Position numbers and translations under genes: made by a program
Notes under the pieces: generated by a model
Seen by the model: the letters and a program-made list of their open reading frames with translations, nothing else
What the model was told of the DNA's origin: nothing
Databases searched by the model: none
Assembly: GCF_024223415.1 (NCBI RefSeq)
Contig: NZ_CP100500.1
Origin: Escherichia coli
GTDB taxonomy: Bacteria > Pseudomonadota > Gammaproteobacteria > Enterobacterales > Enterobacteriaceae
Length of the DNA stretch: 64,000 bases
Reading direction: 5' to 3' (one strand)
In this document: piece by piece, positions 10,797-51,441 of the stretch
Position numbering within the stretch: position 1 is the first letter of the stretch
How the letters are laid out: every line of letters begins with the position of its first letter

Positions 10797-10873
10797 TGGA
10801 CCGCCACCGGGGACTCGAACCTCGCACACTCAACTTAAAGGGTTGACGCTCTTTCCTGATGAGCTAGTGGCGG
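10797..10873 (-). tRNA. tRNA, identity uncertain (anticodon loop CCUUUAA reads UUU but has non-canonical C33; Lys- or Arg-like phage tRNA, possibly decayed)
   Basis: 77-nt cloverleaf: acceptor CCGCCAC/GTGGCGG, D-stem GCTC/GAGC, anticodon stem TCAAC/GTTGA, T-loop TTCGAGT, encoded CCA; 1 nt from neighbouring tRNA. Confidence 0.55.
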
Positions 10874-10874
10874 T

Positions 10875-10950
10875 TGGTGGCCCTTGCTGGATTTGAACCA
10901 GCGACCTGGCGATTATGAGTCGCTCGCTCTCACCACTGAGCTAAAGGGCC
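10875..10950 (-). tRNA. tRNA-Ile2-like (anticodon CAU; Met/Ile-lysidine type), phage-borne
   Basis: GGCCCTTTAGCTCAGTGGTGAGAGCGAGCGACTCATAATCGCCAGGTCGCTGGTTCAAATCCAGCAAGGGCCACCA closely resembles E. coli minor tRNA-Ile (CAU); between Q and lysis genes as in Stx-phage ileZ-argN-argO clusters. Confidence 0.8.
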
Positions 10951-14270: not shown

Positions 14271-14426
14271 TTACTCCTCAGGTTCGTAAGCTGTGAAGAC
14301 AGCGACCTCCGTCTGGCCGGTTCGGATTCGTACCTCGCAGAGGTCTTTCCTCGTTACCAGTGCCGTCACAATGACGGTAATACAGATGACGATCAGGGCG
14401 ACTAACATCGCCTTTTGCTGCTTCAT
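14271..14426 (-). CDS. Hok/Gef-family type I toxin (HokD/RelF-like)
   Basis: 51 aa MKQQKAMLVALIVICITVIVTALVTRKDLCEVRIRTGQTEVAVFTAYEPEE matches Hok family; in-frame upstream ATG at 14483 also present. Confidence 0.8.
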   Translation of the reverse strand: MKQQKAMLVALIVICITVIVTALVTRKDLCEVRIRTGQTEVAVFTAYEPEE

Positions 14427-14637
14427 AGCCTGCTTCTCCTTGCCTTTCGGCACGTAAGAGGCTAACCTAGATTTGCCGTTCATAGATTGAGCCTCAGATT
14501 AATGTTAAGCGTCTTGCCGGACGCGTAATGTTAACTGGGGCTTTTCTCTATCTGCCTTTTGGGGTTCATGCCTGAGACAGATAGCCTCAAGCACCCGCTG
14601 CAATTCTACTTAACTCTCCTTTTCCCGCAAACCATTT
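14427..14637 (-). promoter_or_regulatory. hok mRNA leader; expected location of antisense Sok-like RNA (plus strand) and mok-like reading frame
   Basis: By analogy with hok/sok loci; GGCGAGGGA-TTTC-TCCCTCGCC hairpin just 3-prime of hok at 14233-14254; exact sok ends not determinable. Confidence 0.3.
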
Positions 14638-19286: not shown

Positions 19287-19551
19287 GAATCAAGCTCCTA
19301 GTAAGTGGTTGTGTTAACGTTTTGGTATCTTCCAGCTCGGGCCAAATATTCATCCAATCAAAAGGCCTTAGTTGCTGACGTGTAACTTCACCATTACTGG
19401 CTCGCTCAATAAGGACACATAACGATGCCCCTAACATTTGACCTTTACTCAATGCCTTTCTTAGATAACCGATGCTAGTACCACACTCACATGCAAACAT
19501 ACGCTGTTCATCTGACGAAAGAGAATTGAGAAATATTCTTAATTCTTCCAT
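19270..19551 (-). CDS. Cro-like / YdaS-like HTH regulator
   Basis: 93 aa; ACECGTSIGYLRKALS helix-turn-helix; divergent from repressor across operator region. Confidence 0.65.
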   Translation of the reverse strand: MEELRIFLNSLSSDEQRMFACECGTSIGYLRKALSKGQMLGASLCVLIERASNGEVTRQQLRPFDWMNIWPELEDTKTLTQPLTRSLIHENQA

Positions 19552-19581
19552 AGCTACTCCTTAGTAAACACAGCAAAAGAA

Positions 19582-19617
19582 TACCCACAGGTAAACAAAA
19601 GTCAATACCCTTGGGTT
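19582..19617. promoter_or_regulatory. Operator pair (OR-like): TACCCACAGGTA (19582-19593) and TACCCTTGGGTT (19606-19617) between divergent cro-like and repressor genes
   Basis: Palindromic TACCC-N2-GGGTA-type 12-mers 24 bp apart; same motif recurs downstream of repressor. Confidence 0.5.
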
Positions 19618-19652
19618 GTTTACCTTGCGGTAATCGCATCTATTATTTACCT

Positions 19653-20072
19653 ATGGACAAATATGAATTTAGACGACAACAACTCATCAAAATTCGTGAT
19701 GAGAAATGCGATGGTAAAGCGGTTAACGTGGCCAGAAAGATCGGTCGCGAGCCTTCTTATGTATCAAGAATGTTGTACCCAGAGGGGAAAAAAGGAAAAA
19801 AACGGATCGCTGATGATATGGTGGAGATTATAGAAGAGTCCTTTGGGTTACCCCGGGGATGGATGGATGGTATCGTTTCATCATCAACGAACACAGCCTC
19901 CAATTATGAAACAAGGGTTCTAACGCCACGACAACGTATTTTTTTAGATCTCTTAGACGAACTGCCTGAAAGTGAAGCGGATAACTTATTAAAAACTCTT
20001 GAAGAGAAAAAACAGTATTACAATATGATCTACGAAGAAATCCGTAAAAAGAAAGCACAAAACGCATCATAA
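19653..20072 (+). CDS. Prophage repressor (CI/RacR-like HTH)
   Basis: ATG at 19653 (MDKYEFRR); HTH AVNVARKIGREPSYVSRM; divergent to cro-like gene. Confidence 0.7.
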   Translation: MDKYEFRRQQLIKIRDEKCDGKAVNVARKIGREPSYVSRMLYPEGKKGKKRIADDMVEIIEESFGLPRGWMDGIVSSSTNTASNYETRVLTPRQRIFLDLLDELPESEADNLLKTLEEKKQYYNMIYEEIRKKKAQNAS

Positions 20073-20115
20073 CTCACCAAACAACCAGTCACCAGTTAAG
20101 ATACATCAAAAAAAT

Positions 20116-20152
20116 TACCCATGGGTATTTACTTCTTGGATACCCATGGGTA
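20116..20152. promoter_or_regulatory. Second operator pair: two perfect TACCCATGGGTA palindromes (20116-20127, 20141-20152) just 3-prime of repressor gene
   Basis: Exact 12-bp palindromes 25 bp apart, same consensus as OR-like pair. Confidence 0.45.
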
Positions 20153-20474
20153 TCCTTTCTTTCATACCAACCCACCCCGCCCCACAGAACGCAGGGCAAT
20201 ACTTCGAGTTACCAGGCAGTGGTCAGGGGTTAAGTAGCCAGCCCGAGGCGTATGAACATGACGGCAGGGTTTAACTTTAACTATGCAGCAGGTTTTTGTT
20301 CCGCTACCCCGGCGTTAAGGGGAAACAGAGGATTTCTCAGTGGGCGAAGTCAAACATCAGAATGGAAGGCATCCCGGGATCGGCAAAGAAGCAGCAATGG
20401 CGCTTTATATTGACATCAGCGCCATTGCCGGACAGGTAAGAATTATCAGAGCGGTAACTAAGCGGTATGTGCCT

Positions 20475-20675
20475 TTACTTCAGAAAGGCTCCGGTGATTA
20501 CACCGAAGATATTGTCAACGATTTCCTCATCGAATTGCGAGGACTCATCTTCAGTTACAAGGTGACCACAATTTTTGCAGATGGCTCCCGCGAAACTGTC
20601 AGAGCCCTGCGGCTTAAAGGATGTGTCGAAGACTTCGCCACCACATTCTGGGCAAGAAAACTTGATTGTATTCAT
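20475..20675 (-). CDS. Hypothetical zinc-ribbon protein (66 aa; CPEC...CKNC); strand assignment ambiguous
   Basis: CxxC-x23-CxxC pattern; competing 118-aa plus-strand ORF 20340-20696. Confidence 0.4.
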   Translation of the reverse strand: MNTIKFSCPECGGEVFDTSFKPQGSDSFAGAICKNCGHLVTEDESSQFDEEIVDNIFGVITGAFLK

Positions 20676-21484
20676 AACCAATTTCCTCTCGGGTAACAGA
20701 CCCCTCAGAGGATACCACCTCGCCTGACGTGGTTAAAAGCAGGCACACAACACGAAAGCGCACGGCGAGGTAGCTGGTTCATATATAGCCTGTCGTTAAA
20801 TTTTCGTCGACCGTGCGCTTCCGGTTGTGGCACTCCGCGAAATGGCGCGGCGGTAAGCATGGCGGGGTTCCCTTCCCCTTGAGGACACCGGGTTGTCAGG
20901 TTGACCATGCGCCTGAGTGACAACCCCGCTGCAACGCCCTCTGTTATCAATTTTCTGGTGACGTTTGGCGGTATCAGTTTTACTCCGTGACTGCTCTGCC
21001 GCCCTTTTTAAAGTGAATTTTGTGATGTGGTGAATGCGGCTCAGCGCACGCGGAACAGTTAAAACCAAAAACAGAGTTATGGGTGGATTCTCTGTATCCG
21101 GCGTTAATTGTTAACTGGTTAACGTCACCTGGAGGCACCTGGCACCGCATCAACAAAGTTCACTTCGGTGATGAAAGGTAAGAGAAAATGTTGAATGTAG
21201 CTATTGAAAACCAGTACGGGTGGAATTATAGTGCACCTGCACCTCATAAAACGGGTGCCGGGCGTGGAAACCCGAAAGTTACTCGAGCGCATAACCGCGC
21301 CGAAGCGGTTTTTTTATGCGTAATGCACAGCCACATTCAGATAATGGTGGGGCGTGCAGGGCAGCTGCAAGGCTGGCCGGGTTCTCGAGTGACCGGTATT
21401 TCCACCCCTGTACGTCTCGCCACCCTTATGGTCGTGGAAAGCCTCGGTGGTGAGTTAATTAACTTAACACTTGAGGATGCCATC

Positions 21485-22036
21485 ATGGCTACTACCCTTA
21501 CCCTTTCTCACCCTGACGTAACCATTGAAAATGGTCGCGCTGTCACTACGTCTATTGCGATCGCAGAATTCTTCGGCAAGCAGCATCACCATGTTGTTCA
21601 AAAAATAGAGGCCCTCGAATGTTCTGAACGCTTTTTAACCAGCAACTTTTCGCGGGTTAAATTCGAGCACCGTGGCAATACCTACAATGCCTACCAAATC
21701 ACCAAAAACGGCTTCGTTTTCCTGGTGATGGGCTTCACGGGCAAAAAGGCCGCTGCATTCAAGGAAGCCTACATTGCCGAGTTCGACCGCATGGAGGAAG
21801 AACTGCGCCGGAATAACACCACACCCGCTGACAAAATAATCCCGGGTGATGGCCGCACCCTGGTTATCCGCTTCGACGAACACGGCTACATCAAATTCAC
21901 CGAAACCGTTCCTGATGGCGCACTGGTCTGTACTCTGGATACTTTCCGTTTTTATCTGGAAAAGCAGGGATGGACTCTCATAAACCGGGGCGCAATTAAA
22001 AATATGACCGTCGAGCAGTTGCTGAGTATTAAATAG
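21485..22036 (+). CDS. Phage regulatory protein Rha family
   Basis: VTTSIAIAEFFGKQHHHVVQKIEAL...NAYQITKNGFVFLVMGFTGKKAAAFKEAYIAEFDRME Rha-domain signature; GAGGA 8 nt upstream of ATG 21485. Confidence 0.75.
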   Translation: MATTLTLSHPDVTIENGRAVTTSIAIAEFFGKQHHHVVQKIEALECSERFLTSNFSRVKFEHRGNTYNAYQITKNGFVFLVMGFTGKKAAAFKEAYIAEFDRMEEELRRNNTTPADKIIPGDGRTLVIRFDEHGYIKFTETVPDGALVCTLDTFRFYLEKQGWTLINRGAIKNMTVEQLLSIK

Positions 22037-22081
22037 TTTTCTGGAATTTCCTTCATATCACAAATTATTAAGGAGATTATT

Positions 22082-22303
22082 ATGATTGCTCATCACTTCG
22101 GAACCGATGAAATACCACGCCAGTGCGTCACTCCCGGCGATTACGTTATTTACGAAGGCCGGACATATGTTGCATCGGCAAACAATATCGAAAAGCAAAA
22201 ACTTTATATCCGTGATTTCACTACAAAAACATGCATTACTGACCGCATGATTAAAGTCTTCCTCGATCGTGATGGTTTACCTGTAAAGGCGGAGGCATGG
22301 TGA
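22082..22303 (+). CDS. Hypothetical protein (73 aa)
   Basis: ATG with strong AAGGAG RBS. Confidence 0.55.
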
Positions 22304-22422
22304 GCTGTAATAAATAACTGACCCAATACGACATTCAGCTTAATAAATACATAAGGGTCGATTCTTATATGCCAGCAATGGCAGGGATTCGCACAACCTT
22401 AAAACAGCAATGAGGTTTATCA

Positions 22423-51177: not shown

Positions 51178-51262
<85 letters not shown>

Positions 51263-51318
51263 TCACTTTTCAAAAGTCCCTGAACTCTCAAGCGAATCCG
51301 CAATTAAATATTCTGCCC

Positions 51319-51420
51319 ATGCGGGGAAGGATGAGAAGCTTCGACCAAGGTTCGACTCGAGCGCCAGCGAGAGAGCGTTGCCGCAGGCAACGACCCGAAG
51401 GGCGAAGCGCGCAGCGCTGA
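51319..51420 (+). CDS. tpr: Protamine-like protein Tpr (33 aa, Arg-rich) in tyrT 3-prime repeat region
   Basis: [33 protein letters not shown]; location downstream of tyrT. Confidence 0.45.
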
Positions 51421-51422
51421 GT

Positions 51423-51441
51423 AATCCTTCCCCCACCACCA
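51423..51441 (+). repeat. Repeat of tRNA-Tyr 3-prime end (AATCCTTCCCCCACCACCA)
   Basis: Identical to last 19 nt of the tRNA at 51244-51262. Confidence 0.6.

What the first reader, a model, noticed from the sequence alone, without database searches (positions are those of the whole stretch)
20697..21484. About 0.8 kb with no convincing ORF but long GC-rich inverted repeats, downstream of the immunity region
Between the zinc-ribbon ORF and the Rha gene the six-frame track shows only short, compositionally odd ORFs. The DNA carries long inverted repeats, for example CGGGTTGTCA...TGACAACCCG around 20900-20940 and CCTCGCC...GGCGAGG around 20716-20775. An N-terminal extension of Rha from ATG 21188 is possible but looks non-protein-like. 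The region could encode a structured regulatory RNA of the early-left operon or an unannotated small-protein gene.
Basis: seen in the sequence. Interest (0 to 1): 0.35.

Follow-up and report, generated by a model that had tools for sequence, protein, structure and literature searches.

The report
Three known prophage regulatory RNAs
The apparently gene-free 0.8 kb holds three already-described phage small RNAs, DicF plus an IsrK/C4 antisense pair that controls translation of the downstream Rha regulator, so the finding is real but ordinary.

Summary
The feature is real, but it is already known. The "ORF-free" 0.8 kb is the RNA-regulatory core of the prophage's early-left operon and consists of two described units.

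1. Window 20735-21162 is 94.7% identical to the ydfC-dicF-dicB spacer of E. coli K-12 prophage Qin. It is a structured leader with conserved hairpins, followed by DicF sRNA (20952-21004, 53/53 identical to K-12).

2. Window 21188-21484 is a P4/P1-type antisense "immunity" module:
- a promoter-like site at 21204-21232;
- an IsrK/seqA-like RNA at 21239-21315 with its terminator;
- a C4/CI-like RNA at 21340-21427;
- downstream C4 targets, one covering the Shine-Dalgarno of Rha (ATG 21485).

All three RNAs score above their Rfam gathering thresholds. Across 38 distinct homologous sequences, the C4 loops, the IsrK sites and the Rha leader co-vary three ways (10 a' and 5 b' loop variants).

PGAP annotates the frame from ATG 21188 as the Rha N-terminus, and Pfam calls it "Ash". 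It shows no codon periodicity yet is kept free of stops, like the nested eta/kil genes of P4.

Novelty is low.

The parts
20735..20951 (+). Leader of the dicF precursor, homologous to the Qin ydfC-dicF intergenic region.
   Evidence: Window 20735-21162 is 94.7% identical to K-12 L004 2163-2592. The RNAalifold consensus on 29 distinct homologues keeps these helices, with only G-C/G-U changes.
20746..20829 (+). Long imperfect hairpin of about 24 bp. The invariant stem arms are 20753-20765 and 20811-20823. It is the probable RNase III substrate that gives the 190-nt DicF precursor.
   Evidence: Inverted repeats I2 and I6. MFE -36.4 kcal/mol, z -4.4. The stem arms are invariant while the apical sequence is replaced in homologues. 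A 190-nt species sharing DicF's 3' end would start near 20818, in the 3' arm. This is my arithmetic from bioRxiv 10.1101/2023.04.14.536235.
20952..21009 (+). DicF sRNA (53 nt, 20952-21004) with its terminator hairpin and U-run.
   Evidence: Rfam RF00039 scores 76.7 bits against a gathering score of 48. It is 53/53 identical to the annotated K-12 dicF. The terminator hairpin has compensatory changes in homologues and folds at z -2.3.
21010..21162 (+). Homologue of the Qin dicF-dicB spacer. Homology ends 18 nt before the position of the K-12 dicB ATG, and dicB itself is absent. It contains PGAP's "partial DicB" call (21083-21157).
   Evidence: In K-12 the frame upstream of the dicB ATG is open and reads VDSLYPALIVNWLTSPGG..., the same peptide as window 21083-21181. 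There is a weak sub-threshold STnc100 match at 21016-21157 (32.5 bits against 47).
21188..21484 (+). "Ash"-type open frame, in frame with Rha. It starts upstream of the internal promoter and runs through both RNA genes. It is the counterpart of the N-terminal part of P4 eta.
   Evidence: ORF 21188-22036. Pfam PF10554 Phage_ASH scores 51.6 bits against 26 over aa 14-108. The frame is open in 35 of 38 distinct homologues. In those 35, frame 0 has no stops at all; the only frame-0 stops (4 of 339 variable-block codons) come from the three frameshifted sequences. The other two frames have 22/349 and 35/347. There is no codon periodicity. The P4 ORF that matches the same Pfam model overlies the P4 CI RNA.
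21204..21232 (+). Sigma-70-type promoter-like site, TTGAAA-17-TATAGT. The predicted start at about 21239 is the 5' end of the IsrK-like RNA. It is the counterpart of P4 PLE and the Gifsy-1 PisrK.
   Evidence: It is the best promoter match in 19400-22400 (10 of 12). It is nearly invariant in 38 homologues. P4 and Gifsy-1 have TATAGT/TATATT hexamers at the same place.
21239..21315 (+). IsrK / P4 seqA-like RNA. It has two 5' hairpins and an intrinsic terminator (stem 21293-21310, U-run 21309-21315). It carries C4 target b1 (21264-21270, in the hairpin-2 loop) and a1 (21278-21287).
   Evidence: Rfam RF01394 scores 67.2 bits against 50. Pairing with C4 is supported by covariation: b1:b' has 5 of 7 pairs covarying and 100% of cells paired; a1:a' has 6 of 9 covarying and 90% paired.
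21340..21427 (+). C4 / P4 CI-like antisense RNA. It has a 17-bp closing stem (21345-21361/21406-21422) and two hairpins. The recognition segments are a' (loop 21381-21393) and b' (21399-21405).
   Evidence: Rfam RF01695 scores 73.8 bits against 45. The MFE structure equals the Rfam consensus (-44.3 kcal/mol, z -3.2). The closing stem is 100% paired, with 8 pairs changing G-C/A-U to G-U on the + strand only.
21434..21478 (+). Downstream C4 targets, equivalent to P4 seqC: b2 at 21434-21440 and a2 at 21468-21478. The a2 site covers the Rha Shine-Dalgarno GAGGA (21473-21477). Between them lies an invariant G/U-rich arm (about 21441-21455) that pairs with a2 and the SD in cis.
   Evidence: Repeat I17. 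Cognate a':a2 duplexes average -15.0 kcal/mol against -6.8 for non-cognate pairs, and the cognate is best in 10 of 10 types. b':b2 averages -9.1 against -3.0. The probability that the SD is unpaired is about 0 in 15 of 20 leader variants.
21485..22036 (+). Rha-family regulator gene read from the nested start. This is the regulated cargo. The C-rich, G-poor first ~35 nt are shared with P4 kil.
   Evidence: The Rha domain (TIGR02681) starts at residue 10 counted from ATG 21485 (Pfam). Third-codon-position diversity is 2-3 times that of positions 1 and 2 only from 21485 onward. Window 21473-21516 is 88.6% identical to P4 8334-8377. MATTLTLSHP here matches P4 Kil MATTLTPSHP.

Best explanation
The stretch is the non-coding control centre of the prophage's early-left operon. 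It is a composite of two known RNA systems, both transcribed on the + strand.

Unit 1, 20735-21162, is the dicF locus of a Qin-type prophage.
- A precursor probably comes from a repressor-controlled promoter near 20129-20157, which is flanked by twin TACCCATGGGTA operator-like palindromes (inferred).
- The precursor folds into conserved hairpins and is cut by RNase III in the 20746-20829 stem. RNase E then cuts just upstream of 20952.
- This releases the 53-nt DicF, which ends at its own terminator and represses ftsZ and other host mRNAs by base pairing.
- These functions are shown in K-12 and inferred here from 53/53 identity.

Unit 2, 21188-21484, is a P4/P1/N15-type RNA immunity module placed in front of a Rha-family, antirepressor-like gene.
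- An internal constitutive promoter (21204-21232) makes a 77-nt IsrK/seqA-like RNA that stops at 21309-21315.
- Read-through transcripts contain, and are probably processed to, an 88-nt C4/CI-like RNA (21340-21427).
- Its two exposed segments, a' and b', pair either with b1/a1 in IsrK or with b2/a2 downstream. The a2 site covers the Rha Shine-Dalgarno.
- The leader also hides that SD in a cis hairpin.
- The default state is therefore no Rha translation from this promoter. The C-rich 5' coding region is left untranslated and is probably open to Rho-dependent termination, as in P4.

Two routes could turn Rha on. Both are inferred from relatives.
- Excess IsrK could titrate or refold the C4 element, as shown for Gifsy-1 IsrK.
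- Transcripts from the upstream early-left promoter carry ATG 21188. Translation of that frame would run through the terminator, the C4 element and the leader, overriding the block, as P4 eta does.

What is shown here: family membership, anatomy, three-way co-variation, the open but unconstrained frame, and the nested start.

What is inferred: RNA processing, the direction of regulation, a role for Rho, and the antirepressor function of Rha.
For: Three Rfam matches lie above gathering scores, all on the + strand.

Unit 1:
- DicF is 53/53 identical to K-12, and the flanks are 94.7% identical to Qin.
- The leader hairpins are conserved in 29 distinct homologues.
- The 190-nt RNase III species and the 53-nt RNase E species are documented for K-12.

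Unit 2:
- The promoter-like site is placed 7 nt upstream of the IsrK 5' end, and an intrinsic terminator lies at its 3' end.
- The named structure is 98.2% paired, against 44% or less when the partners are slid. No shuffle of 500 reached it. It has 130 cells with changes on both sides.
- Cognate and non-cognate duplex energies differ strongly. a':a2 is -15.0 against -6.8, a':a1 is -12.4 against -5.4, and b' is about -9 against about -3 kcal/mol.
- G-U pairs in the C4 stem work only on the + strand RNA.
- The leader hairpin sequesters the SD in 15 of 20 variants.
- The codon signature begins only at ATG 21485, and the Rha domain starts at residue 10 from that ATG.
- The frame from 21188 is free of stops in 35 of 38 sequences despite hypervariable blocks.

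Relatives:
- P4 has isrK and C4 hits inside its 214-aa eta ORF, with a nested Kil start MATTLTPSHP.
- Gifsy-1 has the same isrK-C4-antirepressor layout.
- The literature covers IsrK activation of anrP (PMC4825925), the P4 eta/kil/CI/seqA logic (PMC10111431), and IsrK-C4 systems in lambdoid prophages (PMC3632133).
- The module occurs in 2150 of 5426 complete E. coli genomes.
Against: - No expression, processing or translation data exist for this locus.
- The IsrK element alone does not fold better than shuffles (z -1.2).
- The column-wise test of a':a2 and b':b2 failed (67.6% paired). The a2 register shifts by 2 nt and b2 carries a 3-nt indel between variants. Support for these pairings therefore rests on per-sequence duplex energies.
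- The sign of regulation is unresolved. C4-type RNAs repress in P1, P4 and N15, whereas IsrK activates in Gifsy-1.
- The cargo here (Rha) differs from Gifsy-1 AnrP (ORF6N) and from most of P4 Kil.
- The early-left promoter for the DicF precursor matches only 8 of 12 consensus positions (my reading) and was not picked up by the scan.
- ydfABC and dicB are missing.
- The precursor would run antisense through the zinc-ribbon gene.
- Leader helices show almost no compensatory changes (2 of 59 pairs), because the homologues are too similar.
Confidence: 0.82

Rival explanations
1. The region 21188-21484 is simply protein-coding. In this view a genuine "Ash" domain forms the N-terminus of a 282-aa Ash-Rha protein, as PGAP annotates it, and the RNA-family matches are side effects of sequence conservation.
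For: - The frame is open from ATG 21188 into Rha.
- PGAP annotates it as one CDS.
- Pfam PF10554 is matched at 51.6 bits over nearly the whole profile.
- Many database proteins are named "ash family protein".
- tblastn finds the frame at 37-45% identity in distant phages.
- The frame has no stops in 35 of 38 variants.
Against: - There is no codon-position periodicity, while Rha proper shows it strongly.
- A promoter and an intrinsic terminator sit inside the frame.
- Variation is organised as three-way RNA complementarity, not as conservative amino-acid change.
- The founding member of the Pfam family is the old hypothetical P4 "ash/cI" ORF, which overlies the CI RNA. P4 immunity is known to be RNA-borne.
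- The Rha domain and the codon signature start at ATG 21485.
Confidence: 0.08
2. The stretch is decaying junk. It would be a recombination scar left when ydfABC and dicB were lost and a Rha cassette was spliced in, with RNA genes that are no longer expressed or needed.
For: - ydfA/B/C and dicB are absent, and homology to Qin stops abruptly at 20735 and 21162.
- PGAP sees a "partial DicB" pseudogene.
- Three homologues carry single-T frameshifts.
Against: - DicF is 100% identical to the functional K-12 gene.
- The module is kept upstream of Rha homologues that are only 75-78% identical in protein, yet it stays 85-92% identical in DNA.
- Specificity loops and both target sets have co-evolved repeatedly, which requires ongoing selection.
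- The dicF-module adjacency recurs in 81 of 85 loci held.
Confidence: 0.06
3. The inverted repeats act at the DNA level, as operators, a recombination site or a cruciform, rather than as RNA.
For: - Both strands fold better than shuffles (z -5.0 and -5.3), as expected for any palindromic DNA.
- Real operator-like palindromes do exist nearby at 20116-20152.
Against: - Helices contain many G-U pairs that would be A-C mismatches on the other strand.
- Covariance-model matches are strand-specific.
- The repeats are imperfect, bulged and long-range, unlike protein-binding palindromes.
- The complementary segments lie 100-200 nt apart and come in three copies, which fits antisense targeting.
Confidence: 0.03

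Closest known systems
Phage P4 immunity region (PLE - seqA - CI RNA - seqC, inside the nested genes eta and kil)
   Same: - The order of elements is the same, and the same Rfam families hit: isrK 60.8 bits and C4 74.9 bits in P4.
- The two-segment recognition is the same (b1/a1, b'/a', b2/a2), with a2 over the SD of the nested gene (read).
- A long frame starts upstream of the internal promoter and runs through both RNA genes.
- The nested start is homologous: GAGGnTGCCATCATGGCTAC..., MATTLT(P/L)SHP.
   Different: - The nested product here is a 183-aa Rha-family protein, not the 65-aa Kil.
- The host element is a lambdoid (Rac/Qin-like) prophage, not a satellite.
- The module sits directly downstream of dicF.
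- The recognition sequences differ.
- Whether control here is by Rho-dependent termination, as in P4, is untested.
Salmonella Gifsy-1 isrK - STnc1160/orf45 - anrP locus (Hershko-Shalev 2016, PMC4825925)
   Same: - It is the same module in a lambdoid prophage: promoter, IsrK (79.3 bits), C4-like element (69 bits), then an antirepressor-like gene.
- The AUG at the 5' edge of the C4 element (orf45 start, +107) is conserved here as ATG 21344.
- The read-through mRNA is translationally silent in Gifsy-1. Here the SD is predicted to be sequestered.
   Different: - In Gifsy-1 orf45 stops on the anrP start (ATGA), giving translational coupling. Here the same frame runs in phase into Rha without a stop.
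- AnrP is an ORF6N protein unrelated to this Rha.
- The Gifsy-1 locus lies next to antQ in the late-regulatory region, not in the early-left operon.
- Gifsy-1 has no long open frame upstream of the promoter (12 stops).
Phage P1/P7 immI operon (a1 b1 - c4 - a2 b2 - icd - ant) and the phage N15 CA RNA/antA locus
   Same: - The antisense RNA belongs to the same Rfam family or clan.
- There are two target sets flanking the RNA gene.
- The downstream target covers a translation start.
- The cargo is an antirepressor.
- Specificity is set by a few loop bases. P1 and P7 are heteroimmune (my knowledge: Citron and Schuster 1990).
- The N15 gp32 region is hit by the translated frame.
   Different: - P1 blocks the icd start, and ant follows by coupling.
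- P1 has no IsrK-type terminator product that I know of.
- N15 and P4 act through premature termination.
- No direct sequence comparison with P1 was run here.
dicF of cryptic prophage Qin, E. coli K-12 (ydfABC-dicF-dicB operon)
   Same: - The 53-nt RNA is identical.
- The 217-nt leader and 153-nt trailer are 94.7% identical.
- The same hairpins are present, including the stem where the RNase III cut producing the 190-nt species maps.
   Different: - ydfA, ydfB, ydfC and dicB are absent.
- A minus-strand zinc-ribbon gene lies upstream.
- The IsrK-C4-Rha module, followed by a Rac-type kil, lies downstream.
- The immunity repressor differs from DicA.

Membership tests
DicF RNA (Rfam RF00039) | Covariance-model score at or above the curated gathering score | tested here: met
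   76.7 bits against 48, over the full model 1-52, + strand.
DicF RNA (Rfam RF00039) | Sequence of the characterised K-12 gene, including the terminator hairpin and U-run | tested here: met
   53/53 identical to annotated b1574. The hairpin folds at z -2.3. Two helix pairs show compensatory changes in homologues.
DicF RNA (Rfam RF00039) | Embedded in the Qin-type precursor (leader and trailer) from which it is cut | tested here: met
   94.7% identity over 428 nt to the K-12 ydfC-dicF-dicB spacer. The flanking protein genes ydfABC and dicB are absent here.
DicF RNA (Rfam RF00039) | [quoted passage not shown] | not testable with these tools
   Known for K-12 (and its introduction). Inferred here from identity only.
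C4 antisense RNA / P4 CI RNA (Rfam RF01695) | Covariance-model score at or above the gathering score | tested here: met
   73.8 bits against 45, over the full model 1-87.
C4 antisense RNA / P4 CI RNA (Rfam RF01695) | Long closing stem enclosing two hairpins, maintained in relatives | tested here: met
   The MFE structure equals the consensus. The closing stem and hairpin 2 are 100% paired and hairpin 1 is 98.2% paired. Hairpin 1 has 2 pairs with compensatory changes.
C4 antisense RNA / P4 CI RNA (Rfam RF01695) | Two exposed segments complementary to one target set upstream and one downstream of the RNA gene, co-varying with them | tested here: met
   Upstream set: 11 of 16 pairs covary. Downstream set: the column test was inconclusive because of register shifts, but cognate duplexes are 8 kcal/mol better than non-cognate and best in 10 of 10 types.
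C4 antisense RNA / P4 CI RNA (Rfam RF01695) | Downstream target overlaps the translation start region of the first regulated gene | tested here: met
   a2 at 21468-21478 includes the SD GAGGA (21473-21477), 7 nt before ATG 21485.
C4 antisense RNA / P4 CI RNA (Rfam RF01695) | Matured from a longer transcript (RNase P) and represses the antirepressor operon | not testable with these tools
   Needs RNA end-mapping and genetics.
isrK / P4 seqA / c4-a1b1 element (Rfam RF01394, RF03163) | Covariance-model score at or above the gathering score | tested here: met
   isrK scores 67.2 bits against 50. The overlapping alternative model c4-a1b1 scores only 24.9 against 46.7, so it is not met for that model.
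isrK / P4 seqA / c4-a1b1 element (Rfam RF01394, RF03163) | Own promoter at the 5' end and intrinsic terminator at the 3' end, giving a short RNA plus read-through mRNA | tested here: met
   Met at the pattern level only. TTGAAA-17-TATAGT ends 7 nt before the RNA start, and a 6-bp GC stem is followed by U7. Transcripts were not observed.
isrK / P4 seqA / c4-a1b1 element (Rfam RF01394, RF03163) | Hfq binding and trans-activation of the downstream gene | not testable with these tools
   Shown for Gifsy-1 only (PMC4825925).
P4 eta/kil-type nested genes (Pfam PF10554 Phage_ASH frame) | Frame starts upstream of the internal promoter, crosses both RNA genes and is in phase with a nested start just after the downstream target | tested here: met
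   PF10554 scores 51.6 bits against 26.
P4 eta/kil-type nested genes (Pfam PF10554 Phage_ASH frame) | Amino-acid sequence of the Ash part under purifying selection, that is, a true protein domain | tested here: not met
   Diversity is equal at the three codon positions (0.105/0.113/0.110), against 0.096/0.069/0.223 in Rha. Only openness of the frame is maintained.
P4 eta/kil-type nested genes (Pfam PF10554 Phage_ASH frame) | Translation of the long frame suppresses termination and makes upstream transcripts immunity-insensitive | not testable with these tools
   Known for P4 (Forti 1999, as summarised in PMC10111431).
Rha family regulator (PF09669 / TIGR02681) | Rha domain above the curated cut-off | tested here: met
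   PF09669 scores 91.4 bits against 29.9. TIGR02681 scores 88.7 against 45.95, starting at residue 10 from ATG 21485.

The most novel reading that the evidence does not exclude
The "Ash" frame may be a transit ORF. Its amino-acid sequence would be irrelevant, and it would be kept free of stops only so that ribosomes loaded on derepressed early-left transcripts can plough through the IsrK terminator, the C4 element and the SD-sequestering leader, overriding RNA immunity.

In parallel, the combinatorial recognition sequences seen among near-identical modules (10 a' and 5 b' loop variants) may work as a heteroimmunity code. Up to nine co-resident copies per E. coli genome could then each gate their own antirepressor without cross-talk. 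An invariant G/U-rich arm would serve as a universal cis anti-SD for every a2 variant.

If so, Pfam PF10554 and the NCBI "ash family protein" name label an RNA locus rather than a protein domain.
Probability: 0.35. Interest if true: 0.4.

Novelty: already known. Interest (0 to 1): 0.2.

Why it matters
For biology it matters little. DicF, IsrK/seqA and C4/CI are textbook phage riboregulators, and their presence in lambdoid prophages has been noted before (PMC3632133, PMC10111431).

For annotation it is a useful example.
- RefSeq/PGAP labels this DNA as the N-terminus of Rha, as an "ash family protein" or as a "partial DicB", and lists no ncRNA.
- The module occurs in about 40% of complete E. 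coli genomes.
- The data here give a clean illustration of three-way co-variation that sets antisense specificity.
- They also show a frame that is selected to stay open without any constraint on its amino acids.

Tried and rejected
1. Small-protein genes in 20697-21187. Only short ORFs of 90 aa or fewer occur there. The one PGAP calls, "partial DicB" at 21083-21157, is the in-frame leader that precedes dicB in K-12, not part of the 62-aa DicB. Rejected.

2. Ash as the P4 epsilon antirepressor, as one preprint states. Rejected, because P4 epsilon matches PF25738. PF10554 matches the old P4 "cI/ash" ORF that overlies the CI RNA.

3. Column-wise covariation test for C4:a2/b2. It gave no signal at the register derived from the window and a stronger one at slide -2. 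The cause is a 2-nt register shift of a2 and a 3-nt indel at b2 between variants. I replaced it with per-sequence duplex energies using cross-type controls.

4. Its left arm lies outside the conserved block, and its right arm falls in the variable apical part of the RNase III-type hairpin. Probably chance.

5. The terminator call at 20116-20152. I reinterpreted it as twin operator palindromes.

6. Forti 1999 and Sabbattini 1995 could not be read. The P4 mechanism is therefore cited through PMC10111431 and from my own knowledge.

7. AnrP as a Rha homologue. Rejected, because it carries an ORF6N domain and BLASTP finds no similarity.
Full report
**The observation**

The window between the minus-strand zinc-ribbon gene (20475-20681) and the Rha domain lacks a credible protein gene. 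Six-frame listing gives only short ORFs, plus one long frame from ATG 21188 that runs into Rha.

GGGTTGTCA/TGACAACCC lies at 20890-20898/20918-20926, and ACCTCGCC/GGCGAGGT lies at 20717-20724/20764-20771. Arms of 8-9 bp within 120 nt are roughly what chance gives in 870 nt (my estimate), and the 20886-20932 hairpin alone is not exceptional (z -0.85).

The region as a whole folds much better than dinucleotide shuffles (z -5.0 for 20697-21484). Individual elements do too: z -4.4 for 20744-20831 and z -3.2 for 21340-21427.

**What is there**

A scan against Rfam gives three matches above the curated gathering scores, all on the + strand.
- DicF at 20953-21004: 76.7 bits against 48.
- isrK at 21239-21315: 67.2 bits against 50.
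- C4 antisense RNA at 21340-21427: 73.8 bits against 45.

The region is therefore two known RNA-regulatory units placed head to tail.

**Unit 1: dicF**

Window 20735-21162 is 94.7% identical to the ydfC-dicF-dicB intergenic DNA of cryptic prophage Qin in E. coli K-12. Window 20952-21004 is 53/53 identical to the annotated K-12 dicF gene. Homology starts 121 nt after the K-12 ydfC stop and ends 18 nt before the K-12 dicB ATG. ydfA, ydfB, ydfC and dicB themselves are absent.

An RNAalifold consensus on 29 distinct homologues keeps the following elements:
- a long hairpin whose invariant arms are 20753-20765/20811-20823, with the apical sequence replaced between lineages;
- a small hairpin at 20835-20850;
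- a long-range helix at 20824-20831/20928-20935;
- the DicF terminator, which shows compensatory changes.

In K-12, DicF is cut from the polycistronic transcript by RNase III, giving a 190-nt species, and by RNase E, giving the 53-nt species (bioRxiv 10.1101/2023.04.14.536235). A 190-nt RNA sharing DicF's 3' end would begin near window 20818, inside the 3' arm of the roughly 24-bp hairpin. This is my arithmetic, not a measurement.

The "long GC-rich inverted repeats" of the finding are thus the processing structures of the dicF precursor. The exception is the CCTCGCC repeat, whose left arm lies outside the conserved block and is probably fortuitous.

**Unit 2: an IsrK/C4 immunity module in front of Rha**

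The best sigma-70-like match in 3 kb, TTGAAA-17-TATAGT at 21204-21232, ends 7 nt before the IsrK 5' end. An intrinsic terminator (stem 21293-21310, then U7) closes IsrK. The C4-like element follows, and its MFE fold equals the Rfam consensus.

Reading the sequence, the C4 loop a' (21381-21393) and the single-stranded b' (21399-21405) are complementary to two target sets.
- In IsrK: b1 (21264-21270) and a1 (21278-21287).
- Downstream: b2 (21434-21440) and a2 (21468-21478). The a2 site includes the Shine-Dalgarno GAGGA, 7 nt before ATG 21485.

**Test against relatives**

A scan of viral contigs with the Rha protein returned 80 loci. Of the loci held at that point, 82 of 84 matched the upstream module, mostly at 85-92% DNA identity, although Rha itself falls to 75-78% protein identity in most of them. 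These gave 38 distinct upstream sequences.

In the alignment, variation is concentrated in six short blocks that change together. On the named structure, 98.2% of cells are paired, against 44% or less when partners are slid. None of 500 shuffles reached it. For b1:b', 5 of 7 pairs have changes on both sides. For a1:a', 6 of 9 do.

The column test for the downstream targets was inconclusive, because a2 shifts register by 2 nt and b2 carries a 3-nt indel between variants. Per-sequence duplex energies with cross-type controls settle it.
- a':a2 is -15.0 kcal/mol for cognate pairs against -6.8 for non-cognate, and the cognate is best in 10 of 10 types.
- a':a1 is -12.4 against -5.4.
- b':b1 and b':b2 are about -9 against about -3.

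The many G-U pairs in the C4 stem work only on the + strand RNA, which argues against a DNA-level role. In 15 of 20 leader variants the SD is also fully sequestered in cis by an invariant G/U-rich arm (about 21441-21455) that can pair with every a2 variant.

**The frame from ATG 21188**

PGAP annotates Rha from 21188 (282 aa). Residues 14-108 match Pfam PF10554 "Phage_ASH" (51.6 bits). Databases name such products "ash family protein".

The Pfam name goes back to the hypothetical 137-aa "ash/cI" ORF of phage P4. That ORF matches PF10554, and it overlies the P4 CI RNA, which scores 74.9 bits as C4. P4 seqA scores 60.8 bits as isrK. P4 epsilon belongs to a different family.

In the window's homologues, nucleotide diversity in 21188-21484 is flat across codon positions (0.105/0.113/0.110). 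From ATG 21485 on it is 0.096/0.069/0.223. The Rha domain begins at residue 10 from that ATG. The extension is therefore not constrained as a protein.

Yet the frame is open in 35 of 38 distinct sequences, and the three exceptions are single-T indels. Frame 0 has no stops in those 35 sequences. The other two frames have 22/349 and 35/347 in the variable blocks. The b2 indel is 3 nt.

This "open but unconstrained" pattern matches P4. There the long gene eta starts upstream of the constitutive promoter PLE and runs through seqA and CI, and kil is nested in phase. Translation of eta from upstream-promoter transcripts prevents immunity-dependent termination (Forti 1999, as summarised in PMC10111431).

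The P4 214-aa ORF and its nested Kil start (MATTLTPSHPE) are visible. The window's Rha begins MATTLTLSHPD, and window 21473-21516 is 88.6% identical to P4 8334-8377. That shared segment is C-rich and G-poor, which would suit a Rho-loading site. This is inference.

**Other relatives**

Gifsy-1 carries the same layout: promoter, IsrK, C4-like element, then an antirepressor-like gene. There, IsrK read-through mRNA is translationally silent. Short IsrK activates anrP in trans through orf45, and a stable RNA, STnc1160, lies downstream of IsrK (PMC4825925).

The orf45 AUG sits at the 5' edge of the C4 element, and the same AUG is conserved here at 21344. In Gifsy-1 orf45 ends on the anrP start (ATGA). 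Here the frame continues in phase into Rha. AnrP is an ORF6N protein unrelated to this Rha, so the RNA module is shared while the cargo is swapped.

IsrK-C4 systems in lambdoid prophages have been pointed out before (PMC3632133). The module is found in 2150 of 5426 complete E. coli genomes, with up to 9 places per genome. In the rows shown it is annotated as Rha, as ash, or not at all.

**How it most likely works**

- Early-left transcripts probably start at a weak promoter near 20129-20157, bracketed by two perfect TACCCATGGGTA palindromes. Degenerate copies lie in the divergent repressor/cro region at 19582 and 19606, so these look like operators. This step is inference.
- Independently, the internal promoter makes IsrK plus some read-through RNA that supplies the C4-like RNA.
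- C4 pairing to b2/a2, together with the cis hairpin, keeps the Rha start closed.
- Excess IsrK (by analogy with Gifsy-1), or translation of the 21188 frame on upstream transcripts (by analogy with P4), would open it.

Membership, anatomy, co-variation and the frame statistics are shown here. Processing, the sign of regulation, Rho involvement and an antirepressor role for Rha are inferred.

**Verdict**

Everything found belongs to described families that a routine Rfam scan detects, so novelty is "already known" and interest is low.

The residual interest lies in three points:
- the systematic mis-annotation of this RNA locus as protein;
- the transit-ORF reading of the Ash frame;
- the combinatorial specificity variants.

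Noticed in passing
window 20116-20157, 19582-19617: Two perfect 12-bp palindromes TACCCATGGGTA lie 13 nt apart at 20116-20127 and 20141-20152. Degenerate copies sit at 19582-19593 and 19606-19617 in the divergent repressor/cro intergenic region. The scan gave 6 matches with up to 2 mismatches, against 1.6 expected. They look like OL/OR operators around a weak promoter (TTTACT-17-TATCCT, my reading). The pattern scan called this spot a terminator, and Rfam gave weak mir-2041 hits there.
   Followed up: partly
window 21083-21157 (and K-12 locus L004 2475-2609): PGAP's "partial DicB, missing C-terminus" is not part of the 62-aa DicB. It is the frame upstream of the dicB ATG, which is open in K-12 (VDSLYPALIVNWLTSPGG...). 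True dicB is absent from the window. Rha is followed instead by a Rac-type kil (22082-22303).
   Followed up: yes
P4 locus L085 8168-8812 (- strand); Pfam PF10554: The Pfam "Ash protein family" and the NCBI name "ash family protein" trace back to a hypothetical P4 ORF that overlies the CI RNA and seqA. A preprint equates Ash with P4 epsilon, but epsilon matches a different Pfam family (PF25738).
   Followed up: yes
L002 2988-3000 and 3860-3890; window 21150-21178: In strain KFu019 the IsrK-C4-Rha cassette sits between dicF and an intact dicB, and it is flanked by a short imperfect direct repeat (CAAAGTTCA / CAAAATTCA). The translation-start regions of dicB (GAGGACGCGATAATG), Rha (GAGGATGCCATCATG) and P4 kil (GAGGCTGCCATCATG) are alike, which suggests cassette exchange at this joint.
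   Followed up: partly
window 21485-21520: The first ~35 nt of Rha coding sequence are C-rich and G-poor. They are nearly invariant among homologues whose Rha proteins diverge to 75%, and they are shared with P4 kil (88.6% over 44 nt). This is a candidate Rho-utilisation element.
   Followed up: partly
window 21441-21455: An invariant G/U-rich arm (CCUCGGUGGUGAGUU) pairs in cis with every a2 variant plus the SD through G-U wobble. The predicted probability that the SD is unpaired is about 0 in 15 of 20 leader variants.
   Followed up: partly
window 20340-20696 (+) versus 20475-20681 (-): A 118-aa + strand ORF with no family match overlaps the minus-strand zinc-ribbon gene (ECs_2282 family). 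If the early-left promoter reading is correct, the dicF precursor is transcribed antisense through that gene.
   Followed up: no
window 21016-21157: A sub-threshold match to Rfam STnc100 (32.5 bits against 47) lies in the dicF-dicB spacer, which also contains a 23-nt imperfect inverted repeat (21054-21076/21090-21112).
   Followed up: no
window 14421-14596 (-), 10800-10950 (-), 51178-51441 (+): Other Rfam hits above threshold in the window are a sok antitoxin RNA (112 bits), two adjacent tRNAs, and a tRNA followed by an RtT element (137 bits). The last may mark chromosomal DNA outside the prophage.
   Followed up: no
L043, L019 (T8 instead of T7 in the IsrK terminator tail); L045 (extra T in C4 b'): Three homologous loci carry single-T indels in homopolymer runs that break the Ash frame. 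These could be sequencing errors or decaying copies.
   Followed up: no
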